DNA from: Chiloscyllium plagiosum
Taxonomy: Eukaryota
Direction of reading: 5' to 3'
Assembly (NCBI RefSeq): GCF_004010195.1
Contig: NC_057731.1
Span: 17,884,720-17,948,719 of the forward strand
Length of the DNA: 64,000 bases
This document shows positions 2,284-62,478 of this stretch, one piece after another. How positions within the stretch are numbered: the first letter of the stretch is position 1; every line of letters starts with the position of its first letter. A program made the position numbers and the translations under genes. Below the pieces are notes generated by a model. It made no database searches and was not told where the DNA came from. It was given only the letters and a program-made list of their open reading frames with translations.

Positions 2284-3091
2284 TGACGTGAAGGTGCTGG
2301 TGTTAGGCTGGGGTGGACAAAGATAAAAATGACACAACATCAGGTTATAGTCCAACAGGTTTATTTGTAAGTACTAGTTTTTAGAGCGCTGCTCCTTCAT
2401 CAGGTAGCTAGTAGAGCAGGATCATAGGACTTAGAATTTATAGTAAAAGATCAAAGTGTCATAGAACTGATGCAATGTATTGAACAAACGTAGTCTGCTG
2501 TTAAGTATTTAATCAATTAGAATGGGTTGCAGGTTTCCATTCATTTATATGTAAATCCCAGAACATCTTTCAAGTCACATTCCCGAGATAACTTAAGGTT
2601 TCAAAAAAAAGGTGACATCTCAGCTCAGATAATACATTAAAGGTGTGAGATTAGAGTCTGTCTGTATTCCAACCTTGAGTCAGACTGGTTCTATTTCTAA
2701 GGTAGGAGTTTATAAACTGCCACATGGAGTGACTGCCTTCACATTGTGTGCTTTGTGAACAAAATAGAAGTACCTGCAAGTACAAATCTGCAAATGCAAA
2801 TTCACCTCCTAGACTTATATGTGTGGGTGTGGGAGAGAGGGAGCATGTGTGTGTGTGTGTGTGTGTATGTGTGTGTATGCGCGCGCGTGTGTGAGAGAGA
2901 GTGTCTGAGCTGAGATGTCTTTTTTTTTAAAACCTTAAGTTATCTTGGGAATGTGACTTGAAAGAAGTTCTGGGATTTCTGTGTCCTATACTCCTGCACC
3001 ATTTGCTACCTGACAAAGCAGCAGCGCTCCGAAAGCTAGTGCTTCCAAATAAGCCTGTTGGACTATAAACTGGTGTTGTGTGATTTTTAAC
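2284..3091. mobile_element. Non-coding fold-back Penelope-derived element with HHR-like motifs in both arms and an internal (TG)n/(GA)n tract
   Basis: 12-bp TSD tttcaattatca at 2272-2283 and 3092-3103. Outer inverted arms at ~2320-2430 and ~2980-3091; inner inverted pair at ~2556-2630 and ~2904-2977. Confidence 0.8.
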
Positions 3092-3518
3092 TTTCAATTA
3101 TCAGGGTTGCCTAGTTTCACCTCCACTACACCATCCTCTCTGCCCTGTCTCAGTTCATCTGCTGCATCTAGCTTTGACTATTCCAGTGCTTTTGGCTCCT
3201 TCCCTCCTTAAACTTGATCTCCTCCAAAATGTTACTTCCTGTGTCCTAACTCACCCCAAATCCTGATCATCTACCATTTCAATTCTTGTTCACCAACATT
3301 CTTTACCCCCTAACAATGCCTAGATTTTAAAACCCCCATCTATGGCTTCAAACCTCTTGGTCACATCAATCCCTGTAACCTCCTCCAGCCTCATAACTTT
3401 CTGAGGCATCTGTCCACCTCAACTTATGGCCTTTTGCACATTCTCAAATTCTCTCCCTAAAATTCTCCTACTTTATTCTCTGTTCCCTTTTAAAATGTTA
3501 CTTAAAAATTATCCCTTT

Positions 3519-5958
3519 GAAGGTCCCAGAGGACTGTGCTTCATACAGGCCCATTTCACTCATATATGGACTTTAAAATCCTCTCTAAGATTCTTGCGTT
3601 AAGGCTGAAAACTGTGTTACCTTCTACTGTTAAAGAGGACCAGATGGGCTTCATAAAGGGCCACAGATCCTCCAATAACATTAGGAGATTGCTTAACATA
3701 ATTCAAGCATGTCAATAACAGTCAATACAGAGATTGGTGATTTCTCTATTTGATGCCACATCAAATTTGACCGAGTTGAGTGGCCGTACCTTTTCTATAC
3801 TCTGGAGCGGTTTGGCTTGGGCGAAGTCTTTGTAAGATGGGTAAAGGTTCTCTACAGTGACCCTCTCGCTGCGGTCATCACCAGTGGGGTACGATGAAGC
3901 AATTTTAACAGTTTTAGGAGCAGCCAGCAGGGCTGTCCCCCTTTGCCGTTGCTTTTTACATTGGTGATTGAACCATTGGCAGAGGCTAATTGTAGGATCC
4001 TAATATATCCGCTCCAGAATTGGGGTCAAAATTACATAAGATTTTGTTGTACGTGGACGATGTCCTAATTTTTTTGTCAAATCCAGCAGTTTCCATGCCC
4101 AGCCTGAAAATGCATTTGGCGCATTTTCGGGATACAAGATTAATCTTGCAAAGTCAGAAGCTATGCCTATGGATGGTCTTACGAAGGAGCTAGGTTTTGA
4201 GGGCGAGCATCGATTCCCATTTTGGTGGTCACGGGGGTTTTGTGTATTTGGGCATATTCATTACTCCATTTCTTGATCTGTTGTTCAAAGCTAATTTTGT
4301 TAAATTATTTGACAAAATCAAACAAGATCTTCAAAGATGGGAGGCACTTCCAGTCTCGTGATTGGGTCAGATAGTGCTTATTAAGATGAATATTCTCTCC
4401 CGTTTGTTCTACGCTAGGTAGATGCTCCCCCGATTTCAATAAGCAAATATTCAGGAGACTGAAAGGCTCTTATTTGGTATCGTAAGCAGCCCCTCATTAA
4501 ATTAGCTAAACCGCAATTGCCTCACAGATTGGGGGGGAGTGGATGTCCTGGACATTAAAAGCTACTAACTAAGCTCACTTTTATCCTACGTGAATGATTG
4601 GGCCTGTGGGGGGCGTCTTTCAATATGGTTAGGTATTGATACCTCTGAGGCGGGGTCGCCCCTTACTAGCTTGCTGTTTTTGGACAAAATGAGGACAGTC
4701 AGAGAATATTGCCATAACCCAATAGTTATCAATACTGTTAAGGCATTTACGGCAATTCGGCAGAGGGATCGCAATAGTGGTAAAACATATTCTCTTTCGC
4801 CTATAGTTGGTATGCCGGGTTTTCAACCGGGGATGATAGATTCAGGATTCGAACATTGGACAGCTAGGGGTGTGTCTTGCATGGGCGATTTATTTGAGGG
4901 AGACACAATGATGTCCTTTTGATCAGTTAGCGTGGAAATATGAGCTATCTAACAGGGGCCTCTTCTGTTTTTCTCAAGTTAGGGATTTTATTCAAAAACA
5001 AATTACACTTTTGACTGATCCCTACACATCTGACGTAGACAGGAGGGTGCTCAGTGCTAAGAGTACACTTTCTGTCAGCACGTTTTTCATCAATTGGGGG
5101 TGCCCCCTCAGATGAGTTCGATCGACTCCGCAGGGTGTGGGAGAGAGAGCTAGGTGTTGAAGTTTCCTCAGAGGCGTGGGAAGATATTTGGGAAAATGCC
5201 AGAAAGATATCAATTTGCCATAGGACCCATGCTTTACAGTTGAAGATTCTCCACAGTGTCCACATGGCTCTGGACCGTTTGTCAAAATTTAAACCAGGGG
5301 TATCTTCAGCATGTCCCAAGTGCAAGGCCTGTATGGGCACTCTTACCCATTGTCTCTGGTCCTATGATCCTTCTTACTTCACACTGTCCAGTGTGTTCCC
5401 TGCAGATGCATTTAAGAAAACACTTTTCAACATCCTCACTTTCTACACAAGAAAGAATATCTTGCTAGGTTGGTTATCCGACAAACCTCCCGGGCTTGGG
5501 TTGGCAGAAGATTGTTATGGAGCATATCCCCTTGGATTTTTCACAAGTATGGTACACCATAAAACTGACACTATTTCTAAGATATGGCAGCCCTTTTTGG
5601 AATACCTGCACACAGATTTATCTGCCACGCTAATAAGGGCTTTTAAATAACCGTAACAATTGTATTTTAGAGTCCAATATCCAGGGAGGAGGGACTGCAA
5701 ATGTATCAGTGTCTTATTTGGCTGAATTGAGTTATTACTATCTATCAGTTTTGTTGTTGGTTATTATTTAGTTAGTTAAATAGTTAGTTTTGTTTTCTTA
5801 TATATTTTTCTATATATATTTATACATTCGTACAAGAGGGTGGATTGGGTTTTTCCTTTTCTTGTGTTCTTTCTTTGTATTGTTTTGAATTGTATTGTTT
5901 TGTATTTGTTGTAATATTTAAAAAATATATTTTTTCAATAGAAATATATTTAAAAAAT
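3519..5958 (+). mobile_element. 5'-truncated L1/Tx1-clade LINE, frameshifted ORF2 (RT and C-terminal Cys-rich region)
   Basis: DFKILSKILALRLKTVLP...DQMGFIKG, QGCP, YVDD (~4049-4061), CPKC...HCLW; A-rich tail. 14-bp TSD aaaattatcccttt at 3505-3518 and 5959-5972, at a TT/AAAA site. Confidence 0.9.
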
Positions 5959-16780: not shown

Positions 16781-16884
16781 GAGGAATAGAGCAGCCTCAG
16801 ATGCTGCCTGAACTGCTGGGCTTTTCCAGCACCACTCTAATCTAGAATCTGGTTTCCAGCATCTGTAGTCATTGTTTTTACCTA
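16781..16884 (+). mobile_element. Short PLE 3'-end insertion
   Basis: TSD aagaacaggt at 16771-16780 and 16885-16894. Homologous to the post-HHR tail at 33235-33285. Confidence 0.75.
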
Positions 16885-21220: not shown

Positions 21221-21698
21221 ACTTCACCTGACGAAGGAGCAGCACTCTGAAAGTTTGTGATTTTTAATAAACCGGATGTGAAGATGCCAGTGTTGGACTG
21301 AGGTGGACAAATTTAAAAATCACCCAACACCAGGTTATATCCAACAAGTTTATTTGGAAATACTAGCTTTTGAAGCATTGCTCCTTCATTAGGTAGTTGT
21401 GGAGGAGGATCATAAGACACAGAATTTGTAGCAAAAGATCATAGTGTCATGTATGCAATATATGATACAATCATTAATGAACCGAAACCCACAACCCATT
21501 CTAAAAGATGAAAGACTTAACAGCAACCAGGTTTGTTTAATATATCATTTCAGTTGCATGACACTGAAATCTTTTGCTGTAAATTCTGTCTCCTATGATC
21601 TTGCTCCACAGCTACCTGATGAAGGAGCAGCGTTCTGAAAGCTGGTACTTTCAACTGAACCTGTTGCACTCTTACCTGGTGTTGTGTGACTTCTGACT
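21221..21698. mobile_element. Fold-back Penelope-derived element (same family as 2284-3091) plus an adjacent HHR fragment
   Basis: Inverted arms at ~21315-21450 and ~21557-21698. HHR-like cores at 21224-21260 (+), 21361-21396 (-) and 21613-21647 (+). Confidence 0.75.
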
Positions 21699-21706
21699 CT
21701 GTTGCT

Positions 21707-21801
21707 GACTCTTTCCTGCTCCTCAGATGCTGCCTAACCTGCTGTGCTTTTCCAGCACCACACTCTAATATCCAGCATTTGCAGTCCTCACTTTAGCTCA
21801 A
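21707..21801 (+). mobile_element. Short PLE 3'-end insertion
   Basis: gactctttcctgctcctcagatgctgcc...; candidate TSD ctgttgctg/ctgctgctg. Confidence 0.7.
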
Positions 21802-22025
21802 CTGCTGCTGCAGCTAGCATCTGTTTCAATACTAGTTTTAGATTTGACAATATCGACACATTTTTCCCACAGCCTAACCTCCTTAATATTGAGGTCGCCT
21901 AAAACCCTGTCACCTAAGTCCTGATTTCAATTGCTCCACCATTGCCTAAGCTTTGGCATCCTTCCCAAAGCTTCTCTACTTCTTTTATTATTTGTCTTAA
22001 GAGTGTGGTCATGATATCCCCTTAT

Positions 22026-22131
22026 TTATAGATTTTCCTGCTCCTTGGATGCTACCTGACCTGCTGTGCTTTTCCAGCACCACTCTAATCTCGACTCTGG
22101 TTTCCAGCATCTGCATTCCTTGTTTTTACCT
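22026..22131 (+). mobile_element. Short PLE 3'-end insertion
   Basis: TSD atatc(c/t)ccttat at 22014-22025 and 22132-22143; body begins gattttcctgctcc at 22031. Confidence 0.78.
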
Positions 22132-25100
22132 ATATCTCCTTATATGGCATGTGTTGAATTTGTTTGATGATGCTCCTGTCACGCCTTGTGATAATTTACA
22201 AAGTTAACAGTGGAAAATAAATACAAGCTGTTGCTGTCAAGTCTAATTCCTTTACATTTTAATTGTTGTTTGACAGTTATGGGAAACTGTACCTTTTGTT
22301 TAGCTTTTCTGTCTTTTTTTAGTTTCTCTCTTTTCCAGTTCTTTCTGTCCCTTTATTTCGTTTGCTGTACCTGCTCTGACATTGAATTAAATGTTCCAGC
22401 TGGTACTTTTTGACTCAGACTAGATTCTGTGCATTACTGGTTTTGGGATTTCAGTGGTTAAGAAGGGCCTCAATTACTGTTTACAGATGTCCTGTAGAGG
22501 GCAGTGCAATATTTTGATGGTTAGTGAGAGACAAATTCAATGAAAAAGGCCCCAAAATAGCTGTGGAAAAGTGCATATGTAACAATTTGAAATGAGATGT
22601 ACCATTCATTCACTGTTGACTGAAAAATCTGGTCCATATTTTTCTTGAAATCGAATGTGATTATATATTACTTTGCAGCACCCTCACTTAGTCTACGTAA
22701 ATTATAGCTTATACATAAGACTCTGTGATGTATTATCTATTCTGAAGTAATTAATCTGCACTAATAAGTGAGTCCAATGAGAGACATTTTTCATAATGCA
22801 AATTTTGTGTATTTCCAGAGATAAAGGGATAAACAATATTTCAAAATAGCAGCACCTCTATTTATTTTGGGTCTTGATAATGATTTGAATAAACATATAA
22901 CATTTTGCAAAAAATCATGAAACTAATGCCATCATAATAGTTCTGGTGCTGTGAAATAAATGAGAAGCTGTTTACAAATACAACTATGTGATGGTACAGT
23001 AGAATGCAAAGTAAAGCTGACCGAGAGAGAGAGAGAGAGGCTATTTGAATGAACATCACTATTTATTTCATTGGTCCCAATAGGATTTGAAATTCACTAA
23101 TACTTCCATCAATCTTCTGGTATTGCATGACTTAGAATCATAGAATGGTGCAGCGCTTAAGCAGGTAATTTGGCCCATCACGTCTGTGCTGGTTCTTTTG
23201 ACAAGAAAACCAGTTGCTCCCATTTCTTTACCTCCTGAAATTTGTTGTTCTTCCAGTATTCATCCAATTCCTTCCTGAATCTGTATTCATCACCCTATTA
23301 CTTCCAAATTCTAAGTATTCATTGTGCAAATAATGTTTTTTTCTCAGATCACCTCTAAATCTTTCCGTATCATGTTTAAGTCAGTGTTTTCTGGCTATTA
23401 AGCCTTCAATATTTGGAAACATTGGGAGGAGTCTTATAGGGAGCCTGACACAAGCTATGACAAGATGTGTGACAGAATTGGGAGACAAGGACCATCTCAT
23501 TCATGGAGATGATCTCGCTCCATCTTTTATGCTTCTTACAAACATCATGGCGAGACTCTGGCTAGGCTGCAGCGAGATGCCACTTTACAGTCATTATTGC
23601 TTGTGAAACACTTTGTTAATGCCACATCCGACCTCAATAATAAAACATGTCAAATAAGTTTGATGTTCGGGAATTGTGACTAGAGCGTGTACCTAGTAGA
23701 TTCCGCTTCCTGTTTGCTACAAACTACCTTCATGTTGGTCACTGGGCAACAACATCTCGAGGTATGATCCTCATGCACCATCTAATGTATTACTGCTCTT
23801 CCATAGACGTTTGTATCCCTTGTCTGCCAACACAACATGACCATCCTGGCACCTCTACTCTGCAATGGCAGTGCACTCTGGAAGCACAGACTTGCATTGT
23901 AACACTCACTGGCTACTAGCTGGTCACGTTGCACACAGACTGAGGCACCAGCTCACTGACTGGACTCGGCTGTATCTCAGGGCTTTTCACTTGCTCTCTT
24001 AGAGCTTGCTAACTTAATACCTACCTGCATTCTCATGGCATCCCTGCCTTGCCATGCCAGTTACAACCAGGCAGCTTGCCTTGCTGGTCAGCAGTGCTCA
24101 GATAAGGAGGTGTACATCTTACTGTATGACAGGGTGCTACATCAATCTCACACCTTCCTCATGTGCCAACACTTTACACAGAAACCACACTACATGTGCA
24201 GCAAGCAGGGATCCAACTCTTAGGGGAGTAGTCCTCAATGAAGTCCATGGAGCTACTTGTCTATCAGGGGCTCCCAGTGCAGTGACTCAAGGGCAGGTCC
24301 CATTCTAGTCCAGGGAATGGGTCATGGTTATGCCTCCGGTCGGGATGTTCTCAGCCAGAGAACCCGTGACTTTGTGTCTAAGTCCAAGGGGATGGGTCAT
24401 CAATCCATTGGCTCTGTAATAGCAAGTTCAAGTGAATACGGATTAATGTAGGAGGGAGCTGTGTAGGCCCCAGTCAAGGGTCTGGGCACATCTTGTCTGG
24501 TCATGTTAGTCAAGGGATGGGCCACAGTTAGTCCATTGGTTTTTTCCTCAGTAACTAAGCAGGAAAGGTATGGTGGGCAAGTTCAGCTGGAGCCAAGGCA
24601 CTGAGCCTTGACAGTTTAGTCCTTGGGAGTGGTGGCTGCAGGTAGTGGGCAATCGTGAAGTGGGCTAAGTGGATTACAAAGGGTTTAGTGCTGTAAAACA
24701 TGGGGTGGCTGACAGGGGCAGTGTATGACCGCACCTGGCATGGTCACCTCAAATACCAGGGACAGCTTGGGAAAGATGAACAGGTGTAGCTGGTTTGGGT
24801 GGAGACATTGGTGAGTCTGATGTGTATGGGGTGAATGGGATGGGCTATTCGGAAGGAGGAATGGACATTTTGGGGGCTTACTGAGGTAAGTGACTCAACC
24901 TGTGAGTGAGGGCCTACTATAATCACCCCATGTTGGACTTAAAATGGCAACAACATTGGTCATAAACTGATGTAGGGTATACAGGCTGCCTACTGCTTGC
25001 CCATCCAACAGAATTCACCCTCTCTGTACATGGCGTCTCCCTGACAGTGCCATTGCTGGACTAATCTTTGACAATGACACATTTTAACACAGAAGGGGAT

Positions 25101-25243
25101 GTAGAACCAGGAGAGCCTAAGGGGTGAGAGGGACCTAATGCCTGGCATTCACATTGTACACCCTGCAGTGGGTTGTCAGCACAAACCTTCATCCATTAAA
25201 CATTGTGTGGTTGTAAACTGCTATTGGCTGGTGTGGAAGTGTA

Positions 25244-25317
25244 AAAACAATAACTGCAGATGCTGGAAACCAGATTCTGGATCAGTGGTGCTGGAAGAGC
25301 ACAGCAATTCAGGCAGC
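25244..25317 (-). mobile_element. Short PLE 3'-end insertion
   Basis: Direct repeat tgtggaagtgta at 25232-25243 and 25318-25329; body matches the 33240-33285 tail. Confidence 0.78.
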
Positions 25318-25574: not shown

Positions 25575-25835
25575 CAGGTCAGACATGCTGAGGCTGGAAG
25601 GACACAGCAAGCCAGGCAGCATCAGGAGGTAGAGAAGTCCACATTTCAGGTGTACCCCTTCTTCAGGACTGGGGGTGGGTGTGGGGGTAACTGTAGATAA
25701 ATGGGTGGTAGAGGCAGGGTGGTGAAGTGGAGATAGGTGAAGCCAGGTAGAGGGTACGATCTGGTTGGTCAATAGGAGGAATGAATCTGATCAGTGGCAG
25801 GGAGAAGTGGAAGTGATGGGGAGGGGCTGGGAATG
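25575..25835 (-). mobile_element. PLE 3' fragment with degenerate HHR (25636-25670)
   Basis: Minus strand reads agtc-CTGAAGA-aggggtacacct-GAAA-tgtg-gact, with the pyrimidine-rich 3' UTR seen in the other PLE copies. Confidence 0.7.
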
Positions 25836-26042: not shown

Positions 26043-26290
26043 AAAAAAAAATCACACAACATCAGCTTATAGTCCAACAGGTTTATTTGGAAGTACTAGC
26101 TTTTGGAGCGTTGCTCCTTCATCAGATGATTGATGATTAGGTGATGATGATGATCAGGTTGACAACCACCTGATGAAGGAGCAGCTCTCCGAAAGCTAGT
26201 GCTTCCAAATAAACCTGTTGGACTATAACGTGGTGTTGTGTGATTTTTACCTTTGTCCACCCCAGTCCAACACCAGCTCCTCCAAATCAT
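26043..26290. mobile_element. Minimal fold-back HHR element (~80-nt arms, ~45-nt (gat)-rich spacer)
   Basis: 26045-26124 is the inverted repeat of 26169-26248. Confidence 0.8.
26167..26201 (+). ncRNA. Minimal type-I hammerhead ribozyme motif, core intact
   Basis: cac-CUGAUGA-a-ggag(cagct)ctcc-GAAA-GCUA^-gtg. Helix I is cac/gtg and a palindromic AGCU replaces helix III. Confidence 0.72.
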
Positions 26291-26657
26291 GAATACAGAA
26301 GTCAGTGCACATTTGACTGTGATCATCAGCAAACCCTGTACTGCTACTAGGATGAAGCAGCAATTACTATCCCTGAAGTGCTACACACCTACTTTGTGTT
26401 AATAGGTTTCTGAAGCATTGTTTCTGATTTTGGGGAGATGTTTGTTGGAAGGACAAAGTTAATTCTGGTGAGTTGTGCTTTTAATGAGATGTGAATGATT
26501 ACAGCTAGACCTCTCCTCACCTACTAGTGACATACTTGACCCAGTACCTGAAGGGGGAGAAGAAAATACTCTCTTAAATTAGCGAGTTTTGAGAAGATTT
26601 GTAGCTCAGGTTGAGGTTTTGGATGTAGGCTTGCTCGCTGAGCTGAAAATTTCATTT

Positions 26658-26697
26658 CCAGACGTTTCGTTACCTTATTAGGTAACATCTTCAGTGG
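26658..26697 (-). ncRNA. Minimal hammerhead ribozyme in PLE pLTR, core intact
   Basis: cca-CUGAAGA-u-gttacct(aata)aggtaac-GAAAC-GUC^-tgg, with a 7-bp helix II. Confidence 0.8.
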
Positions 26698-27298
26698 GCC
26701 TCACACGAAGCAATGCTGAAAATTCCTGCTGTCTATTTATATGTTTGGGTTTCTTTGGGTTGGTGATGTCATTTCCTGTGTTGATGTTATTTCCTGTGGT
26801 GAAGTCACTTCCTGTTCCTTTTCTCAGTGAGTGGTAGATGGCGTCTAACTCGATGTGTTTGTTGATAGAGTTCCGGTTGGAATGCCATGCTTCTATGTCT
26901 TTGTTTGGCTTGTCCTAGGATGGATGTGTTGTCCCTGTCAAAGTGGTGTCCTTCCTCATGTGTATGTGAGGATACTAGTGAGAGAGGGTCATGTCTTTTT
27001 GTGGCTAGTTGATGTTCATGTATCCTGGTGGCTAGTTTTCTGCCTGTTTGTCCAATGTAATGTTTGTTACAGTCCTTGCAGAGTATTTTGTAAATGACGT
27101 TAGTTTTGCTCATTGTCTGTATAGGGTCTTTCAAGTTCATTAGCTGCTGTTTTAGTGTGTTGGTGGGTTTGTGGGCTACCATGATGCCAAGGGGTCTGAC
27201 TAGTCTGGCAGACATTTCCGAGATGTCTTTGATGTAGGGGAGAGTCGCTAGGGTTTCTGGATGTGTTTTGTCTGCTTGTTTGGGTTTGTTGCTGAGGC

Positions 27299-27338
27299 CC
27301 ACTGAAGATGTTACCTAGCAAGGTAACGAAACATCTGG
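27299..27338 (+). ncRNA. Minimal hammerhead ribozyme in second pLTR (GUC changed to AUC)
   Basis: cca-CUGAAGA-u-gttacct(agca)aggtaac-GAAAC-AUC-tgg. Confidence 0.7.
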
Positions 27339-30300
27339 AAATGAACCTTTCAGCTCAGCGAGCAAACCTACATCCAAAACCTCAACCTGAGCCACAAATC
27401 TTCTCAAAACTCACTAAGATCTATGGGCGCAATACACTAAAACTGGCCTGAAAATGGGAAATGAATGCCATCCGACAGAGTGCCACCTGCAAACAGCTGT
27501 ACCTCCTGCACGAATGCCTAAGGAAACAGGTACAACCTAAATGTCTTCAATACAAACCTCCCCTTCATACCCCACTAGCCATAAGAATAGCAGAGCAAAA
27601 CGGCCACAGAATGCTTAGAGAAATGATTAATGATGCCCACAACAGACTCCATAAATACAACCGGGAAATTTTGCATCAAAAATCTTTACTCAGTCATGCA
27701 ACAGACCATGAATGGACAGACACAGTACAACAAGCCGTAGATATTAGATAGCGACAAATACAGAAAATGAAATTAGACCTGCAGAAAAAACTAGACAAAC
27801 TTACACAAAGTAACAACATTGACAACACAGACGCATGGATAAAAAACGTATCTGATCGACCCCTAACAGACACTGAAAAAGCCGTCTTACTGAGAGGATT
27901 AAATTACAACTGACAGGATGTGGACAAGAAAGATTTCTTAGCAGCAATAGAAACAACATTAAAAGACAACCAACTCGCAGAAGAAACCCAACAATCCATC
28001 AAACAGGTAGTTGCACCAACATTAAGCAGAAACAAGGAAGGAAACACACTCAATGCACAAGAAAGGAAAGCACTGGAAAGACTAAAAAGAGATAAAAACA
28101 CTGTTATCCTACCTGTAGACAAAGGACGCTTGACAGTCATTCTAAACCAACGAGACTACATTGAAAAAGGAAACGCACTACTTACAGATATCAACACTTA
28201 CCAACAAGTGGCGATAGACCCGACCCCACAACTAGACAACCGAATCACAGCCCGACTCAAAAAACTTCAGAAATCTGGACAAATAAATAAGACCATACAG
28301 ATCTAACACACCACACTTCTACGGATTACCCAAAATTCACAAACCAGGAGCCCCCCCTCAGGCCCATCAGTCTTGCTACCTGGAACACCAACTTACAGAG
28401 TGGCCAAGGAGCTACACCAAAGACTAAAACACTTAGTAGAAGGCTCACGCCACTCCATCCACTCCATCCAAGAATTCCTGAAGACCAAAGACACTAAGAT
28501 AGAAGAGGATGAAATAATGGTCTCCTTTGATGTAACAGCCCTGTATACTTAAATCAACAGTAACATGGCCAGGGAAACACTGACTACACTATTAGAAGAC
28601 CCAAAGACACATATACAAAACACCACTAACTTCACCAGCAAGGAAAATATCATCAAGCTAGTTGACCTATGCCTTACCACCCACTTCACCTACAACAAAA
28701 ATAACCTACAGACAAACCAATTGGACACCCATGGGATCTCTGATATCAGGATTCTTAGCAGAGGCAATAATGCAGAGACTTGAGCAAACAGCTCTGCTAA
28801 CCATCCAACCCAAACCCTGGGTCCGCTATGTGGATGACACCTTTGTCATCACTAAATGAAACAAGTTAGAGGAAATCTTCAAGACCATCAATAACATGCT
28901 TACTGGCATAAAATTCACTAAAGAGGAGGAAAACAACAACAAACTGCCATTCCTAGCACAATAGAGCGAACAGCCAATGGGGAACTTCAAACCAGCGTCT
29001 ACAGAAAAACAACACATACGGACCAAATATTGAACTCCAGAAACAATCATCCCAACACCCACAAATGAAGCTGCATCAGAACATTATTTCAACAAGCCAA
29101 CACATACTGCAGCACAGAGGAACTACACAGAGCAGAGGAAAATCATCTGATACCATGTATGCAAAAGGAATGGGTACCCAATGAACACATTCCGCTGATT
29201 TCTCAGCAACAAGCCCAACCAAGCAGAGTCAGATGTTTTACTACTTGCCTGATTAAGCTCACCTGCCTGCCATTATTGTCACCTTCTACGAGACTGGAAA
29301 ATCCCTCCTGTACTTCCTGGGGTCAGCCCTGAGGTGTTGGAGCTAAAGACACAGAGGAAGAACAATTTGAGGAGGCGGGAACGCCAGCACTTGATTAGTA
29401 TTCACAGCCACCAGCTTAGATACTGGCACTACACATACCTTGGTGGATAACAATGAGGCACAATTAACATAAAATACTGGGCAGTGCAGTGTTAGATGGA
29501 AAGGCTATGTGCGTGCCAGCCTTGCCAGAGTGTGGGTTTGCAGATTGATTAAGCTGTAGAGGAATTGGGTGAATAGTATTCTTAGTGAGTCAGTCATCTT
29601 GTTGGCAGTCCTTGTCCTCCTCTTCCATATTGACTGTTTTTGCTCTCTGTGCTCCATCTCATTCCAAGGTTACAGTCCAGGAGGGCACAGCAACTAATGT
29701 CGCTATGACCAAGAGCAAGTGGAATGCTCAAGGTTATTTCTCAGGCACCCAACACCTTCCCAATGTCCAGAGTTAATTTACACAGAATTTATTGATTTTT
29801 CCAAATTCCTCTGAAAGCCTAGTATATACACAAATACAGCAAGAGCCAGTAGTCAATAACAGTGACTTTCTGCATCAAATGATTAAGGTCTGGAATGCAC
29901 TGCCTGAAACCGATGGAGGCAGATTCAGCTGAAGCATTCAAATAGGAATGAGACCATCATCTGAAAAGGAAAAATGAGCAGGAGGGAAAGGGGAGGGAAT
30001 GGGAAAGGGGAGGGAGTGGGAATGTGCTTAGAGAGCTGTTCAGACCTGATGGGTTGAATGGCTGCTATCTATGCAGGGCTGATACCGGGACTTTGTGATT
30101 CTACAACTTGCAAGTTGGATGATACTCCCTTTGTATAGCACTCCTGGAGTATGTTCATGCATCTGGTCACATGTTCAGCTGTGTCTCTACGGAGTGTGTT
30201 AACCAGAGTAGCAAGCTGGAAAATAGTAGATTGGGTGCCAAGTTGCCACTAGTCTCTGACTGGCTCCGCAGTCTGCCTACTCTGTCTGTGTTAGTGTTGT

Positions 30301-30509: not shown

Positions 30510-31846
30510 GAAACAAAAACAGAAATTGCTGGAAAAACTCAGCAGGTCTGGCAGCACCTGTGCAAAGAAAGCACAGTTAATGTTTTGAGTCCAGTGACTC
30601 TTCTTCAGAACTGATTAGAGCTAGGAGAAAGAAGGTTGGTATGAATGCTGAAGGTGAGGCGGTGGGGAGAGGCAAGAACTAAACATTAAGTGGAGATGGG
30701 GCCCAGACAGAGAGAAAAAGTTGGACAGACAAATGAATGGATAAAGGTCAGCCTGAGGAAATCAATAGCTGACAATGGGTTGTTTCTGGTAGCAGTCCAT
30801 ATGATGACAAGGCCTGGTTTGTGAGGGTTGAGGTAAAGGAATAGGAGAAGGTGCTCAGGCTCTAACAAACATATTATACAAACTTAATAAACTGATTATT
30901 GAGTCCAGAAGGCTGCAGGATTCCCAAATGGAAAATGAGATGCTGTTCTTGCAGCTTGTACTGAGCCTCGCTGGAGCATTGCAGCAAAACGTAAAACAGA
31001 GACATTGGCCAGAGAACACGGTGATGTGTTAAAAAGGCAGGCCACTGGAGGCAGAGGGTCATTTTTGTGGAAAGAACATGGGTTTTCTGCAAAGTGGCCA
31101 CTCAGTCTGTGCTTCATCTCCCCAGTGTAGTGGAGACCACATTGTGAGCAGTGAATACAGTAGACTAGATTGAGTGAAATGCAGATAAAATGCTTTCACC
31201 TGGAAATTGTGTTTGGGACCTTGGATACTGAGGAGGGAGGAAGTCAATGGGCAGGTGTTACACCTTCTGCGATTGGGTAGGTGCCGTGGAACTGTGTGGA
31301 GGTGTTGAGAGTGAAGGAGGAGTGGACCAAGGTGTTTTAGAGGGAAACAGTACTTGCAGAAGGGGGAGGGGAACATGTCTGTGTGGCATCCTGCTGGAGG
31401 TGGCGGAAGTGGCGGCTTATGATCCTCTGGATGTTGATGCTGATGGGATGGTAGGTGAGGATGAGGGAGACCTTATTGCAGGGAAGTAGAGAGGGGGCGA
31501 GGGCCAAAATGCGAGACATGGGTCAGACTCGGCCCTATCAACCATGGTGTTCGGGAAGAAGAAGAAGGTGGACATTTTGGATGCTCCTTTGTTGAAGTTG
31601 ACATCATTGGTACAGATGTAATGAAGATGGAGGAACTGGGAGAATGGAATAGAGTCTTCGCAGGAAGGAGGGTGTGAGGATGTATAGTCCAGATAACTGT
31701 GGGAGTCAATCGGTTTGTAGTGGGTATTGGTGGCCAGCCTATCCCCAGAAATGGAAACAGAGATGTCGAGGAAGGGAAGGGAGAAGTCAGAGATGGACCA
31801 GGTGAAGGTGAGAGCGGGTTGGAAATTGGAAGCTAAATTGATAAAC
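30510..31846 (-). mobile_element. 5'-truncated Neptune-like PLE (RT C-terminus/thumb, Cys linker, GIY-YIG, 3' end with degenerate HHR at 30575-30612)
   Basis: FLDISVSISGDRLATNTHYKPIDSHSYLDYTSSHP; frameshifted EN; agtt-CTGAAGA-a-gagtc(actg)gactc-aAAA-catt-aact. Confidence 0.85.
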
Positions 31847-32200: not shown

Positions 32201-32424
32201 ATTCTTTTGAGTTGGTTCTTTTGTGTTATTAAATATATCTTACTTGCACGGTAGTTGAAGACTATTTATCTCTCTAATAGAAAGCAGAGCAGAAATGGGG
32301 TGGACATTCAGGAATTGCCAGGGTTTTCTCAGAGAAGGGCCTGGAACCAGTTCTAGCACGCAAATTGTTAACATTAAAATAATGGCACATCTTGTTTCTG
32401 TTTGCTCTTGTTTGCTTGCTCATT

Positions 32425-33285
32425 ATTTCCCTCCCCAGGGATATATTTCCCTCCCCACCCCTCTCCGCCTTCCGCAAAGATTGTTCCCTCCGTGACTACC
32501 TGGTCAGGTCCACGCCCCCCTACGACCCACCCTCCCATCCTGGCACTTTCCCCTGCCACCGCAGGAACTGTAAAACCTGTGCCCACACCTCCTCACTCAC
32601 CTCTATCCAAGGCCCCAAAGGAGCCTTCCACATCCATCAAACTTTTACCTGCACATCCACTAATATCATCTATTGTATCCGTTGCTCCCGATGCGGTCTC
32701 CTCTACATTGGGGAGACTGGACGCCTCCTAGCAGAGCGCTTTAGGGAACATCTCAGAGACACCCGCACCAATCAACCAAATCGCCCAGTGGCCCAACATT
32801 TCAACTCCCCCTCCCACTCTGCCGAGGATATGGAGGTGCTGGGCCTCCTCCACCGCCGCTCCCTCACCACCAGACGCCTAGAGGAAGAACGCCTCATCTT
32901 CCGCCTCGGAACACTTCAACCCCAGGGCATCAATGTGGATTTCAACAGTTTCCTCATTTCCCCTTCCCCCACCTCATCCTGGTTTCTAACCTCCAGCAAC
33001 TCGACTTGTCCGGACTTGTCCGACTTGCCGAGGTCCTTTTCCACCTATCCACTCCACCCTCTCTTCCCTGACCTATCACCTTCATCTCCTTCCCCACTGA
33101 CCTATTGTACTCTATGCTACTTTCTCCCCACCCCCACCCTCCTCTAGCTTATCTCTCCATGCTTCAGGCTCTCTGCCTTTAAGAGCTTTTATTCCTGATG
33201 AAGGGCTTTTGCCCGAAACGTCGATTTTGCCTGTCCTCGGATGCTGCCTGAATTGCTGTGCTCTTCCAGCACCACTAATCCAGAA
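32425..33285 (+). mobile_element. Young 5'-truncated Neptune-like PLE with uninterrupted Cys-linker and GIY-YIG frame
   Basis: Perfect 14-bp TSD tttgcttgctcatt at 32411-32424 and 33286-33299. TFPCHRRNCKTC...NIIYCIRCSRCGLLYIGETGRLLAERFREH...EEERLIFRLGTLQPQGIN. CpG-rich. Confidence 0.93.
33191..33226 (+). ncRNA. Minimal hammerhead ribozyme at PLE 3' end, core intact
   Basis: attc-CUGAUGA-a-gggc(tttt)gccc-GAAAC-GUC^-gatt; predicted cleavage after 33222. Confidence 0.78.
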
Positions 33286-34805: not shown

Positions 34806-35020
34806 GTTGACAAAGTCAGAAGTCACTTGACACCAGGTTATAGTCCAATAGGTTTATTTGAAATCACAAACTTTTGGAGGGCTGCTCCAATCAGGTGAAA
34901 GTACCTCCACATTTCATTTCAGCTCTGATGAAGAGTCACTTGGATCAAAATGTTAGTTTGATTTCTCTCCATGGATTCTGCCTGACCCGTTATGATCGCC
35001 AGCATTTTCTGTTTTCAGGA
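34806..35020. mobile_element. Back-to-back PLE 3' ends of two families, each with a decayed HHR
   Basis: Fold-back-family arm on - (34806-34900); agct-CTGATGA-a-gagtc...aAAA-tgtt-agtt on + (34921-34958). Confidence 0.6.
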
Positions 35021-42288: not shown

Positions 42289-42320
42289 ACACTATTTAAA
42301 CCGACCATAACCTACTTGCA

Positions 42321-42544
42321 CTGAAAACAACAAATGCTGGAGATCACAGCAGATCAGGCAGCATCCATGGACAGACAGTAAATTAATATTTTGAGTCTGC
42401 TAATGTTTCGCTTTGAGATGACTCTTAGCAGACTCAAAATGTTAGCTTGCTCTCTCTCCATGGATGCTATCTGACCCACTGTGATCTCTGGCATCTGTTG
42501 CTTTCAGTACAGATTCGAGCATCTTCAGTAATTTGCTCCTAAAC
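42321..42544. mobile_element. Hairpin insertion of a PLE 3' end
   Basis: 12-bp TSD aacctacttgca at 42309-42320 and 42545-42556; arms at ~42321-42403 and ~42426-42508. Confidence 0.8.
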
Positions 42545-48485: not shown

Positions 48486-50840
48486 AGAGTCATAGAGTAA
48501 TACAGCATGGAAACAGTCTCTTCATTCCAACCAGTTCATGCCAAACATAATACCAAACTAAACTAGTCCCACCTGTCTGCTCATGCCCCTTATCCCTCCA
48601 AACCTTTCCTCTTCGTGTATCTATCCAAATGTCTTTTAAATGTTGTAATTGTGCCAACATACACCACTTCCTCTGAAAGTTCATTCCACAAGGGAACCAC
48701 CCTGTGTACAACATTTGCTTCTCATGATTTTTTAAAATCTCTCTCTTCTCATCTTAAAAATGTGCCCCCTAGTCTTGAGATTCCCCCTCCTAGGGAAAAG
48801 ACAAATGCCATTCACTCTATCTATATCTTTCCTTATTTTATAACCTTCTATCAGGCCGCTTCTCAACCACTTATGCTGCAGTGAAAAACCCCAGCCTATC
48901 TAGTCTTTCTTTATAACGCAAACCTTCCATACCTGGCAACATCCTGTTAAATTTCTTCAGAACCCTCTCCAACTTAATAATATCCTTCCTATAACTGGGC
49001 AACCAGAACTTGTCACAGTACTCTATAAGAGGCCTCACCAATGTGTTGTACAGCCTCAACATGTCTTTCCAACTCCTATACTCAAAGAACTGAGCAATGA
49101 AGGCAAGCATGCCATATGCCTTTTTAACCACCCTTTCTACATGTGATGCAAATTTCAAAGAATTATGTACTTGTACTTCTACAGCACTACCCAAGGAGAA
49201 AGTGGGGGCTGCAGATGCTGGAGATCACATTGAAAAAGTGTGGCGCTAGAAAAGCACAGTGGGACAGGCAGTATCTGAGGAGGAGGAGAGTCGACGTTTT
49301 GGGGGTATGGGGGGGGGCTTGAAGTTATAATCAAGGACAGAATGACTAAGCAGTTTGGGCATGGGAATTGAACAACATGAAATTATAAATTGCTGGCCAT
49401 ATTTGATGAATACTAGTTTTCTTTGTTAGGTTAGTAACAATGTTTGGCAGGGGACTTCCAATGGAGATCAGGAGTGTGATGCTGGAAAGCACAGTCAGGC
49501 AGGCAGCATCCGAGGAGCAGAAGAGTCGATGTTTTGAGCATAAACTCTTCATCAGGAATGGGGGAAGGGGCAAGAGAGCTGAGAGATAAATCAGAAGTGG
49601 GGGTGAGGGTGGGAGTGGGGTTGAGCTGGGGGGAAGGTAACTAGGAAGGTGATAGGTAGATGATGGTGGGGGTTGATGGTGATAGGTTGGAGCAGAGGGT
49701 GGAGTGAATAGGGGGGAAATAGGATGGACAGGTAGGACAGTTCAAGAGACTGATGCCGTGTTAGAAGGTTGGCACTGGTATTAGATGGAGGGAGGGGAGA
49801 TTAAATTGGTGAAATTGACATTGATTCTGTGTGGTTGGAGGGACGTCCTGAACAAACCCACTGTCCTGTGGCCGAACACATCACTCTCCCCACCCCCACA
49901 ATGCCAAGGACATGCAATTCCTAAGCGTCCTCCACCACCAAATCCCCGTCACCCGGTCCCTAGAGGAGTAACACCTCATCTTCCACCTTGGGACCCTCCA
50001 ACCACACAGAATCAATGTCAAATTCACCAGTTTCCTCTTGAACTGTCCTACCTGTCCAGCTTCCTTCCCACCTATCCACTCCACCCTCTCCTCTGACATA
50101 TCACCCCCCCCACCTTCATCTACCTATCGCCTTCCTAGCTACCTTCCCCCCAGCCCCACCACTCTCCCATTTATCTCTCAGCCACCTTGCCTTCCCCCTC
50201 CAACAATCCCCACATTCCTGATGAAGGGCTTATGTCCAAAACATCGACACTTCTGCTCCTCGGATGCTGCCTGACCTGCTCTACTTTTCCAGTACCACAC
50301 TTCTGAATACTGCCCAAGGCCCTACCATTAATTGTATAAGCTCTACCCTTGTTTGTTGCAATGTTTTGCATTTATCCAGATTGAACTCCATCTGCTATTT
50401 TTCAGTCCATTGACCCATTTGATCAAGATCCCTTTGTAATCTTAGACAATAAATTTTGGTGTCATCCACAACCTTACTAACCATGCCATCTATATTCTCA
50501 TTAAAATCATGTATATAAATGACAAACAAAAGAGGACCCAGAACTGATCCCTGTGGTACATCACTGGCTACAGGCCTCCAGTCCCAAAAGTAATACTCCA
50601 CCATCACTCTCTGTCTTCCGCTGTTAAGCCAAGTATCCAATTGGCATGTTCACCCTGAATCCCAAAGGCTTTACAAAGATCCAAATAAACAATGTCTACT
50701 GCTCTGCCAACATTAATCTTTTGATAACTTCCTCATAAGACTCAATCAAGCCTGTGAAACATGCTATTCCTCGCACAAAACTCTAAACGTCCATAAATCT
50801 TATCTTTTCTAATCACCTCAAATAATTTACCTACAACCTT
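48486..50840 (-). mobile_element. CR1 fragment interrupted by a PLE composite
   Basis: VPQGSVLGPLLFVIYI (50395-50640) and LVRPLIEYCDKFW (48871-49194); (ctatga) tail at ~48486. Confidence 0.85.
49197..50308. mobile_element. Composite fold-back PLE insertion with HHR-like motifs (49523-49559 -, 50214-50250 +)
   Basis: TSD act(a/g)cccaagg at 49186-49196 and 50309-50319. Minus-strand 3' ends at 49197-49300 and 49462-49842; plus-strand EN-3' end at ~49845-50302. Confidence 0.8.
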
Positions 50841-55477: not shown

Positions 55478-55593
55478 TGAAGGAGCATCGCTCCGAAAGC
55501 TAGTGTGCTTCCAATTAAACCTGTTGGACTATAACCTGGTGTTGTGTGATTTTTAACTTTGTACACCCCAGTCCAAAACCGGCATCTCCAAAT
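55478..55593 (+). mobile_element. Single arm of the fold-back HHR family, truncated within the HHR core
   Basis: tgaaggagcatcgctccgaaagctagtg...ctataacctggtgttgtgtgattttt...catctccaaat; homologous to 26173-26288. Confidence 0.85.
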
Positions 55594-55617
55594 AATGTAA
55601 TTCATGCTTTCATGCAG

Positions 55618-59019: not shown

Positions 59020-61328
59020 ATTGAATTGAATTGAATTTATTGTCACGTGTACTGAGGCTCAGTGAAAAGCTTTATCTTACGAGCAATATAGGCAGATCAC
59101 ATAGTTAAATAGCATAGATAAATAAATAATAGGTAAACAGCGGCAAAAACAAAAACACAAGTACAGGCAAATGCTAAGAGTTTGTGAGTCCATTCAGTAT
59201 TTTAACAACAGTAGGGTAGAAACTATTTTGAAATTGGCTGGTGCATGTGTTCAAGCTTCTGTACCTTCTCCCCAATGATGGAGGTTGTCGGAAAACATTA
59301 CCAGGATGGGATGGATCTTTGAGAATACTGGCGGCCTTTCCTTGACAGCGGGCGTGGTAGATGGATTCTATAGATGGGAGGTTGGCCTTTGTGATTGCCC
59401 GGGTTGAGTTCACCACTCTCTGTAACCATCTCCGATCTTGAATGGTACAGTTGCCATACCAGGTAATGATACATCCAGACAGAATGCTCTCAATGGCACA
59501 CCTATAAAAGTTAGCCAGGGTATTCACCATCATGCCAAATTTTCTCAGCTGTCTAATGAAGAAGAGATGTTGGGCCTTTGTAACCAGTGCATCTACATGA
59601 AGAGTCCAAGAAAGCTTGTATTGATGTCCACTCCCAGGAGCTTGACACTCTCCACTTGTTCCACCTCTGTGCTGTTAATGTGTAGGGGGGCATAAGTAAC
59701 ATCCCACCGAAAGTCAATAATGAGTTCCTTGGTTTTGCCGGCATTGAGAGCTAGGTTATTCTCAGTGCACCATTTTTTCAGGTCTTCTACCACGTGTCTG
59801 TAGTCTGTTCCATCGCCATCTGAGATTCGACCGACTATGGTGATGTCATCAGTGAACTTGTAAATGGCATTAGTCTGGTATTTGGCGACACAGTCATGGG
59901 TGTGCAGTGAGTACAGTAGGGGACTGAGTATGCACCACTGGTGGGCTCCAGTGTTGAGCGTTAGTGAGGATGAAATATAGCTGCAAGATGATTACATTTA
60001 CAAGATGATTAGGGGTTTAGATAAGGTCGACAGTGAGAATCTTTTTCCACGTATGGAGTCAGCTATTACAAGGGGGCATAGCTTTAAATTAAGGGGTGGT
60101 AGGTATAGGACAGATGTTAGGGGTAGATTCTTTACTCAGCGAGTCGTGAGTTCATGGAATGCCCTGCCAGTAGCAGTGGTGGACTCTCCCTCATTATGGG
60201 CATTTAAGCGGGCATTGGATAGGCATATGGAGGATAGTGGCGTCGTATAGGTTAGGTGGGCTTGGATCGGCGCAACATCTGGCGGCCTTTCCTTGACAGC
60301 GGGCGTGGTAGATGGATTCTATAGATGGGAGGTTGGCCTTTGTGATTGCCCGGATTGAGTTCACCACTCTCTGTAACCATCTCCGATCTTGAATGGTACA
60401 GTTGCCATACCCAGGTAATGATACGTCCAGACAGAATGCTCTCAATGGCACACCTATAAAGGTTAGCCAGGGTATTCACCATCATGCCAAATTTTCTCAG
60501 CTGTCTGATGAAGAAGAGATGTTGGTCCTTTGTAACCAGTGCATCTACATGAAGAGTCCAAGAAAGCTTGTAATGATGTCCACTCCCAGGAGCTTGACAC
60601 TCTCCACTTGTTCCACCTCTGTGCTGTTAATGTGTAGGGGGGCATAAGTAACATCCCACCGAAAGTCAATAAAGAGTTCCTTGGTTTTGCCGGCATTGAG
60701 AGCTAGGTTATTCTCAGTGCACCATTTTTTCAGGTCTTCTACCACCCGTCTGTAGTCTGTTCCAAGGCCATCTGAGATTCGACCGACTATGGTGATGTCA
60801 TCAGTGAACTTGTAAATGGCATTAGTCTGGTATTTGGCGACACAGTCATGGGTGTGCAGTGAGTACAGTAGGGGACTGAGTATGCACCACTGGTGGGCTC
60901 CAGTATTGAGCATTAGTGAGGATGAAATATTGTCCCCAGTCTTCACTGATTGTGGTCTGTGGGTCAGGAAACTGAGGATCCAGTTGCAGAGAGTGTGACT
61001 TAGTCCGGGATCACTAAGTTTAGTTATCAGTCTCGAGGGGATAATAGTGTTGAAGGCTGAACTATAGTCAATGAGTAGGATTCTTACGTAGCTGTTCTTG
61101 GTGTCAAGATGTTCTAGGGAGGAGTTAAGGGCAAGTGATATGGCATCTGACATGGACCTGTTGGTCCGATAGGCAAATTGGAGTGGGTCAAGAGTAGTGG
61201 AGAGACTGGAGTTGATTAATGCCACGACCGGCCTTTCAAAGCACTTCATGACCCCTGAAGTTCGGGCCGTTGGGCAGTAGTCATTGAGACATGCTGCATG
61301 AGCCTTCTTAGGCAAAGGGATGGTGTTG
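59020..61328 (-). mobile_element. 5'-truncated Rex1/Babar-clade LINE with internal 651-bp duplication
   Basis: PKK...CLNDY.P.A.TS.VMKCFER, LDPLQFAYR.NRS..DAI, YVRILLIDYSSAFNTIIP, KFTDDITIVG; (TTCAA)n tail at 59020-59038. Confidence 0.9.
59979..60278 (+). mobile_element. CR1 3' fragment between the duplicated Rex1 segments
   Basis: MIRGLDKVDSENLFP...TRGHSFKLRGGRYRTDVRGRFFTQRVVSSWNALP; lacks the terminal tail. Confidence 0.85.
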
Positions 61329-62369: not shown

Positions 62370-62478
62370 CCCCATTTATTTCTCCACCCCCGAGGCTCTC
62401 AGCCTCATTCCTGATGAAGGGCTTTTTCCTGCACCTCAGATGCTGTCTGACCTGCTGTGCTTTTCTAGCACCCCACTG
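62370..62478 (+). mobile_element. PLE 3' fragment with internally deleted HHR
   Basis: cattcctgatgaagggcttt joined directly to tcctgcacctcagatgctg; the GAAACGUC half is missing. Confidence 0.65.

What the first reader, a model, noticed from the sequence alone, without database searches (positions are those of the whole stretch)
21707..22131. Two ~100-nt retroposed inserts start at the predicted HHR cleavage site
Seen: in longer copies the cleavage site is followed by GATTTTGCCTGTCCTCGGATGCTGCC (33223) or GACTCTTCTGCTCCTCGGATGCTGCC (revcomp ~49525). The insert at 22031 begins GATTTTCCTGCTCCTTGGATGCT, after 5 extra nt inside a 12-bp TSD. The insert at 21707 begins GACTCTTTCCTGCTCCTCAGATGCTGCC. 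Neither retains any upstream ribozyme core. Inference: the 3' self-cleavage product was the RT template, giving a ribozyme-defined mini-retroposon. This would also be genomic evidence that these minimal HHRs cleave in vivo. Caveat: n=2, and other short copies (16781, 25244, 49197) break elsewhere.
Basis: partly seen in the sequence, partly recalled or inferred. Interest (0 to 1): 0.72.

Follow-up and report, generated by a model that had tools for sequence, protein, structure and literature searches.

The report
Penelope stubs rarely start at cut
The two 100-base inserts are real scraps of a Penelope-type jumping gene, but such scraps in this genome pile up about 32 bases in front of the predicted ribozyme cut, not at it, so these two are likely ordinary truncations; better evidence for cutting comes from copies elsewhere that are joined to U6 RNA exactly at the predicted cut.

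Summary
The sequences are as described. 22031 starts at the predicted cut (+1) after 5 extra bases inside an 11/12-bp duplication. 21707 reaches +1 only with a 2-base insertion; otherwise it starts at +4. Both are tails of a GIY-YIG Penelope-like element (PLE) with a minimal hammerhead, about 130 arms per Mb.

Of 190 arms from 1.6 Mb, 3 start at +1, with no excess at -2..+3 (p=0.54), while 51 start at -36..-31, the ribozyme's front edge (p=2e-18; repeated in a second set and a second family). Most short copies thus keep the whole ribozyme, likely by run-off on uncut RNA. A weak, post-hoc excess at +1..+10 (15 vs 4) is mostly inversion and deletion junctions and leaves room for a small cleaved class.

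The scan reported both the front-edge peak and the U6 chimeras before on other DNA. Verdict: known element; ribozyme-defined mini-retroposon not supported as a class.

The parts
22031..22131 (+). Short PLE family-A tail (+1 to about +101), no ribozyme core
   Evidence: 95-98% identical to its 29 fetched relatives
22014..22025 (+). Left copy of 12-bp target duplication (11/12), followed by 5 unexplained bases 22026-22030
22132..22143 (+). Right copy of the 12-bp target duplication
21707..21801 (+). Older family-A tail; start at +4 (21712) by profile, or +1/+2 if a 2-nt insertion is allowed
21699..21707 (+). Possible left copy of a weak 9-bp duplication (8/9; partner 21802-21810)
21557..21702 (+). 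Family-B PLE arm with its own minimal hammerhead (CTGATGA at 21616), directly upstream of the 21707 insert; inverted partner at 21342-21451
32383..33147 (+). 3' end of the parent PLE ORF: CX4CX2C linker and GIY-YIG endonuclease
   Evidence: PF01541, 23.6 bits, cut-off 22.6
33191..33226 (+). Minimal type I hammerhead of family A; predicted cut between 33222 and 33223; -32 = 33191
   Evidence: activity not tested
33223..33283 (+). Tail of the long copy, ending near the short terminus (about +60)
49462..49559 (-). Ribozyme and tail of the minus arm of a head-to-head pair (plus arm ribozyme at 50214)
50214..50301 (+). Ribozyme and tail of the plus arm of the same pair
16795..16884 (+). Short family-A tail starting at +13
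25241..25317 (-). Short family-A tail starting at +21
49199..49303 (-). Short family-A tail starting at about -11
62407..62477 (+). Family-A copy with an internal deletion between the two TTTT runs of the ribozyme, which mimics a start near +3

Best explanation
The two inserts are short 5'-truncated copies of a Penelope-like element's ribozyme-and-tail region, and their start near the predicted cut is likely a chance point in a spread of truncations whose peak lies about 32 bases upstream. Shown: the parent is pLTR-ORF-pLTR with a GIY-YIG endonuclease; sense arms end at +89..+103 and most inverted arms begin at +55..+69, inside 9-20 bp duplications; 5' ends peak at -36..-31. Inferred: the element's protein nicks the target and starts reverse transcription at two fixed internal sites of its RNA, as shown for the anole PLE. 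When it uses the tail copy near the RNA's 5' end, it runs off an uncut transcript that starts at about -32, probably the transcription start. Earlier stops, inversions and microhomology deletions fill the range from -30 to +30. The ribozyme does seem to cut some RNAs, but those pieces are seen fixed mainly after ligation to U6.
For: Breakpoints: 51 of 190 arms at -36..-31 (51 of 133 within -60..+17, simulated share 0.098, p=2e-18); tail-selected set 29 of 105 (p=2e-7); +1 3 of 190; -2..+3 6 of 28 within -15..+17, p=0.54. Controls: 0 of 62 long copies mis-called at -40..-26; DNA upstream of these breaks is 49% pyrimidine against 75% for the element's UTR. Duplication-defined simple short inserts start at -34, -34, -33, -32, -31, -27, -23 and -6..-1. 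Family B: 22 of 51 arms at -40..-26. In three contig runs and one raw RNA run, the largest listed 5' loose-end cluster is at -32 and none is listed at +1 (partly subfamily divergence, only top rows shown). PMC11167929 (parts 1-2 of 4): RT starts internally at two sites, both strands are extended, uncut RNA is the dominant substrate, and no RNA-seq reads began or ended at the cut. PMC2377424 (passages): Penelope has an internal promoter.
Against: +1..+10 holds 15 starts against 4 at -10..-1 in the blind sample (post-hoc p=0.013). The best-supported inverted joints in public contigs pair -32 with +2..+6. U6 chimeras show that 5' ends at +1 exist. 22031 is a young, clean insert whose match starts exactly at +1. 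A transcription start at -32 is not shown: the cap-derived G reported by earlier notes was not enriched in my non-inverted junctions (15 G of 50, about 14 expected by hand calculation), although 4 of 12 listed joint rows carry a single G before -32, -36 or -38.
Confidence: 0.62

Rival explanations
1. A minority of templates (a few percent) are 3' self-cleavage products. RT starts at the +100 site and runs off the 5'-OH end at +1, and 22031 is such a copy, its 5 extra bases being untemplated.
For: U6-end junctions at +1 in 7 of 7 arms, 6 loci, reversed-pattern control 0; full-length U6 by Rfam abuts the junction at 3 of those loci. Step from 4 to 15 across the cut. 22031 matches from +1 exactly.
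Against: No one-base edge: 3 at +1, 1 at +2, 2 at +3, 2 at +5, 3 at +6, 2 at +7; p=0.11 for +1 alone. Of the 15 starts at +1..+10, the script classed 10 as inverted; by eye two more are inverted and two are internal deletions, leaving 1 simple start. In vitro the anole element uses uncut RNA (PMC11167929).
Confidence: 0.25
2. Starts at +1..+8 come from the ribozyme's shape, not its cut. RT stalls at the 3' edge of the fold, or helix I complementarity (-32..-29 with +1..+4) and the repeated TTTT and GAT words steer inversion and deletion junctions there.
For: In several +1..+6 inverted junctions the partner arm ends at -26..-35, some with 2-nt overlaps. Joints pairing -32 with +2..+6 in contigs. 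Deletions that end at +3..+7 in window 62407 and L088.
Against: 22031 is neither inverted nor a deletion. The monomer fold is weak (z -0.6). This reading does not explain the U6 junctions.
Confidence: 0.13

Closest known systems
EN+ Penelope-like elements with pLTR, inverted 5'-truncated arm and 30-40 bp tail (PMC3846280 and PMC8557442, passages read); Neptune-type by the CX2-5CxxC linker
   Same: GIY-YIG endonuclease, pLTR-ORF-pLTR layout (L253), head-to-head arms, a tail of about 40 nt between two termini, target duplications, heavy 5' truncation
   Different: Very high number of 90-135 nt stubs (about 4.7e5 arms extrapolated) and a sharp 5' pile-up at the ribozyme's front edge, which I did not see in the passages read
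[quoted passage not shown]
   Same: CUGANGA, one extra base, G10.1-C11.1, no helix III, palindromic 15.2/16.2; mostly dispersed single motifs
   Different: [quoted passage not shown]
Anole Poseidon element PAc in vitro (Frangieh et al. 2024, PMC11167929, parts 1-2 of 4 read)
   Same: Two internal RT start sites define the tail; both strands extended; uncut RNA used
   Different: Here the ribozyme and tail lie upstream of the likely start codon (first long-frame ATG beyond the tail at +137); different clade
R2 elements whose 5' end is set by an HDV-like ribozyme (PMC3774820, search listing only)
   Different: Bare copies here do not start at the cut as a class
U6/LINE-1 chimeras made by RtcB ligation (Moldovan et al. 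2019, PMC6789731, abstract and Discussion part 1 of 2 read)
   Same: U6 ending in a T tract joined to a retroelement; ligation needs a 5'-OH end
   Different: Junctions sit at one base, the predicted ribozyme cut, whereas L1 partners are variably truncated and need an unknown nuclease
Non-LTR retrozymes (bioRxiv 10.64898/2026.07.22.740005, part 1 of 5 and passages read)
   Same: Non-autonomous, pLTR-derived, hammerhead-linked
   Different: Those are tandem units that each carry a ribozyme; the two inserts are single and carry none

Membership tests
EN+ Penelope-like element | C-terminal GIY-YIG endonuclease upstream of the pLTR | tested here: met
   PF01541 over its cut-off in window 32383-33144
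EN+ Penelope-like element | pLTR at both ends of one ORF | tested here: met
   L253 carries ribozyme and tail at both ends, with ORF pieces between them
EN+ Penelope-like element | Inverted 5' arm, 30-40 bp tail and target duplication | tested here: met
   56 of 95 long-terminus arms have a duplication (control 2 of 95); 40 of 56 begin with an inverted arm, 36 of them at +55..+69
EN+ Penelope-like element | Telomerase-like RT in the same ORF, placed by phylogeny | not tested
   No uninterrupted RT was read and no tree was built
Neptune clade | CX2-5CxxC linker before GIY-YIG | tested here: met
   CHRRNCKTC in the ORF; the motif is shared with Nematis and Naiad (PMC8557442), so the clade is not fixed by it
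Minimal PLE hammerhead | CUGANGA, extra base, helix II, GAAA, NUH with no helix III | tested here: met
   72 of 135 arms that reach the core have it intact with a 4-bp helix II; Rfam gave no hammerhead match in the window
Minimal PLE hammerhead | Self-cleavage | not testable with these tools
   Indirect only: U6 junctions at +1
   3 of 190 at +1; peak at -36..-31
Non-LTR retrozyme | Tandem units, each with a hammerhead | tested here: not met
   Both inserts are single and lack the core
U6/retroelement ligation chimera (other loci) | Full-length U6 with T tract abutting the element | tested here: met
   Rfam RF00026 hits of 89-103 bits end one base before +1 at C7, C10 and both C31 arms; the other 3 loci were not among the 48 candidates scored
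U6/retroelement ligation chimera (other loci) | One target duplication around the whole chimera | not tested
   The flanks of these loci were not read

The most novel reading that the evidence does not exclude
Shark-type Penelope hammerheads cut in the germ line, and the 5'-OH piece is a real though minor template. It is fixed either bare (22031 being one such copy) or after ligation to U6, so the genome records two RNA 5' ends of one element: the transcription start at -32 and the ribozyme cut at +1.
Probability: 0.3. Interest if true: 0.62.

Novelty: new member of a known kind. Interest (0 to 1): 0.33.

Why it matters
Whether the weak minimal hammerheads of animal Penelope elements ever cut in vivo, and whether cut RNA is copied, is open (PMC4209133, PMC11167929). 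This test shows that bare stubs are the wrong place to look: most keep the ribozyme whole, which fits the in vitro finding that uncut RNA is the template, and it predicts a transcription start at -32. The U6 junctions at +1 are the better record of cutting. Both points were noted before by this scan on other DNA; the two inserts themselves add little.

Tried and rejected
Rfam scan of the window: no hammerhead match; one MIR9471 hit far below its cut-off on a family-B hairpin, rejected. RNA evidence: no RNA holder listed; in the single-cell poly(A) run laid twice there was no place where many molecules begin or end, and a second run laid nothing, which is no test of starts. Cap-derived G: not enriched in my junctions (5 of 22 and 6 of 24 at -33; 15 of 50 at the first unmatched base). 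Folding: ribozyme monomer and tails do not beat shuffles clearly (z -0.6 to -1.5). 5' ends of full-length elements: 39 further copies that run into the ORF start were located, but their upstream DNA was not read, so this test stays open; the one read (L253) keeps the ribozyme and matches the UTR to about -45. Subfamily divergence as the cause of the -32 peak: rejected by leave-one-out, base composition and duplications. First family sorting by regex was too loose and was replaced. The family-B count needs the GAAA box and so cannot see +1 starts; of the 6 rows it dropped among 58, up to 4 begin between about -4 and +8 by eye. U6 joined upstream of the cut: patterns gave 5, 1 and 1 matches, none with a five-T end joined to the element; three that read directly into the core vanish when one more U6 base is required. 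Literature searches listed no title on 5' breakpoints of PLE stubs or on U6-PLE chimeras; the library lacks most subscription papers, I read only the parts named, and no supplements were opened.

Full report
Numbering: +1 is the G after GAAACGTC, the predicted hammerhead cut; CTGATGA starts at -28 and the 5' strand of helix I at -32.

1. Observation. The insert at 22031 runs to about 22131 and matches from +1 with normal spacing. Its duplication is 12 bp with one mismatch, and 5 unexplained bases precede +1. The insert at 21707 is weaker. It has 9 bases between the supposed +1 and CTGCTCC, against 7 in 202 of 205 ribozyme-bearing arms; the profile break is +4; its best duplication is 9 bp with one mismatch and takes in the G called +1. 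It follows the tail of a second hammerhead family by 5 nt. So one insert starts within -5..+1 and the other within +1..+4.

2. What the family is. The long copy at 32383-33283 ends an ORF with a CX4CX2C linker and a GIY-YIG domain, followed by a pyrimidine-rich UTR, the ribozyme and the tail. L253 shows ribozyme and tail at both ends of an ORF, and the tail runs on into the ORF start, with a likely ATG at +137. This is an endonuclease-bearing Penelope-like element, Neptune-type by the linker (PMC8557442, passages). The host looks like a shark (recalled from its repeats and taken from earlier notes; no call names it). The motif fits the minimal hammerhead of PMC4209133; 72 of 135 arms that reach the core have it intact. 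Density is 132 arms per Mb, about 4.7e5 by extrapolation.

3. I fetched 160 stretches of 10 kb chosen blind to content: 20 beside the window and 140 at round coordinates on 35 contigs, with 58,710 N. Arms were found by a profile of +18..+57 only. Of 290 hits (window included), 288 passed the edge filter, 220 were family A, 203 lay outside the window at 20 bits or more, and 196 had a readable junction. By profile, 5 of 196 start at -2..+3 (1 not inverted), with 3, 6, 3 and 3 in neighbouring 5-nt bins, and 132 of 196 reach -28 or further. Against a library of 62 long copies, 190 arms could be placed: 51 start at -36..-31, 3 at +1. In 1500 simulated uniform truncations 72% were placed within 2 nt. 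Against that null, -2..+3 shows no excess (6 of 28, p=0.54; +1 alone p=0.11), and -36..-31 is strongly enriched (51 of 133, p=2e-18). A second set of 126 arms from loci picked by tail similarity repeats both results (3 of 17, p=0.72; 29 of 105, p=2e-7); this set disfavours starts downstream of +1 and holds one duplicated locus. Of the 28 readable nearest relatives of 22031, 26 keep ribozyme sequence back to the GAAA box or beyond, and 2 break within 5 nt of the cut, both at inversions. Of the 28 readable relatives of 21707, none starts cleanly at +1 and one simple insert starts at +4.

4. The -32 peak is not an artefact. No long copy (0 of 62) was mis-called at -40..-26, and DNA upstream of such breaks is 49% pyrimidine against 75% in the UTR (2 of 63 reach 68%). 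Duplications give a homology-free check: 56 of 95 long-terminus arms have one (control 2 of 95); of the eight simple short inserts I picked out by eye, five start at -34..-31 and one at -6..-1. Family B has 22 of 51 arms at -40..-26 (its filter hides +1 starts, up to 4 of 58 rows by eye). In public contigs and reads the largest listed 5' loose-end cluster is at -32, though other subfamilies add to it.

5. Architecture. 40 of the 56 duplication-flanked copies begin with an inverted arm, 36 of them at +55..+69, and sense arms end at +89..+103. This is the inverted-arm-plus-tail pattern of PMC3846280 and PMC8557442 (passages), explained by two internal RT start sites in PMC11167929 (parts 1-2 of 4), which also found uncut RNA to be the main substrate.

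6. Results against my reading. +1..+10 holds 15 starts against 4 at -10..-1 (post-hoc p=0.013). Ten were classed as inverted by script; by eye two more are inverted, two are deletions and one (L070) is a simple start at +1. The best-supported inverted joints in contigs pair -32 with +2..+6. Helix I complementarity can explain these, but so can a small cleaved class. I could not reproduce the cap-derived G of earlier notes in my junctions, though 4 of 12 listed joint rows have a single G before -32, -36 or -38. The transcription start at -32 is therefore an inference, supported by the internal promoter of Drosophila Penelope (PMC2377424, passages).

7. Cleavage in vivo, from other loci. Earlier notes of this scan reported U6 fused at the cut, and I tested this. 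A pattern of the U6 3' end (motif recalled), a 0-25 nt gap and the tail core gave 7 matches at 6 loci, all with five T joined to +1; the reversed control gave 0 (a stricter pattern gave 3 of 3). Rfam U6 hits end one base before +1 at C7, C10 and both C31 arms; only 48 of 453,147 candidates were scored, and the other three loci were not among them. Patterns for junctions upstream of the cut gave 5, 1 and 1 matches, none a five-T end joined to the element. U6 thus joins at the rare end (+1) and not at the common one (-32). That is what ligation to a 5'-OH end predicts (PMC6789731, abstract and Discussion part 1) and template switching does not. Flanks of these loci were not read.

8. Mechanism. 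Shown: parent structure, two 3' termini, duplications, the 5' peak at -36..-31, no peak at +1, U6 junctions at +1. Inferred: internal RT initiation on the 5'-proximal tail, run-off at the start of an uncut transcript, occasional cleavage with ligation to U6. The two inserts are most likely early stops in this process (0.62); a cleaved template (0.25) or structure- and microhomology-guided junctions (0.13) remain possible, mainly for 22031.

9. Verdict. The more interesting results lie outside the finding's coordinates, and the scan noted them before on other DNA. Interest 0.33.

Noticed in passing
G000 C1:38728267 (-), C3:3076534 (-), C7:109202594 (+), C10:45249824 (-), C11:5559511 (+), C31:9507363 (-) and 9507616 (+): U6 3' end joined exactly to +1 of family A in several subfamilies. 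The C31 pair is one head-to-head insertion. The C1 copy runs on into the ORF start (its +94..+344 match is), so a long element begins at the cut.
   Followed up: partly
G000 C4:20771294, C28:20340378, C80679:2706, C17:14163238: Further U6-end-like motifs followed directly by the first six bases of the tail; not verified as U6 or as element.
   Followed up: no
window 21225-21702, 26047-26300, 2281-2436, 2977-3131, 34806-34897, 55478-55597: Second PLE family (B) with its own minimal hammerhead, often as head-to-head pairs; its 5' ends also cluster just in front of the core.
   Followed up: partly
window 26579-28552: Another PLE with a GIY-YIG domain and RT-like fragments, inverted arms 26579-26703 / 27293-27417, and a hammerhead with a longer helix II.
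   Followed up: partly
window 25593-25668 (-), 30527-30610 (-), 42317-42511: Sister families (C, D) that share the tail core but have different ribozyme stems; excluded from the counts.
   Followed up: partly
L253:3918-4439 to 3819-3825, L109, L247: Partial-tandem joints in which the ORF-start region jumps back to -32..-38, four listed with one extra G.
   Followed up: no
family A, -35..-29: The sequence around -32 resembles an initiator (YYANWYY, consensus recalled) in most long copies; family B fits less well.
   Followed up: partly
family A, +80..+100: The long terminus looks like a branch point, pyrimidine tract and, in some subfamilies, AG; a splice acceptor before the ATG at +137 is possible but untested.
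   Followed up: no
window 59303-59758 / 60254-60710: Near-identical tandem duplication with about 950-bp spacing.
   Followed up: no
L155:2571-7515: Open frames that look like an LTR element or endogenous retrovirus.
   Followed up: no
L095 and L104: Two loci share identical 415-nt stretches (tandem duplication); they count twice in the tail-selected set.
   Followed up: partly
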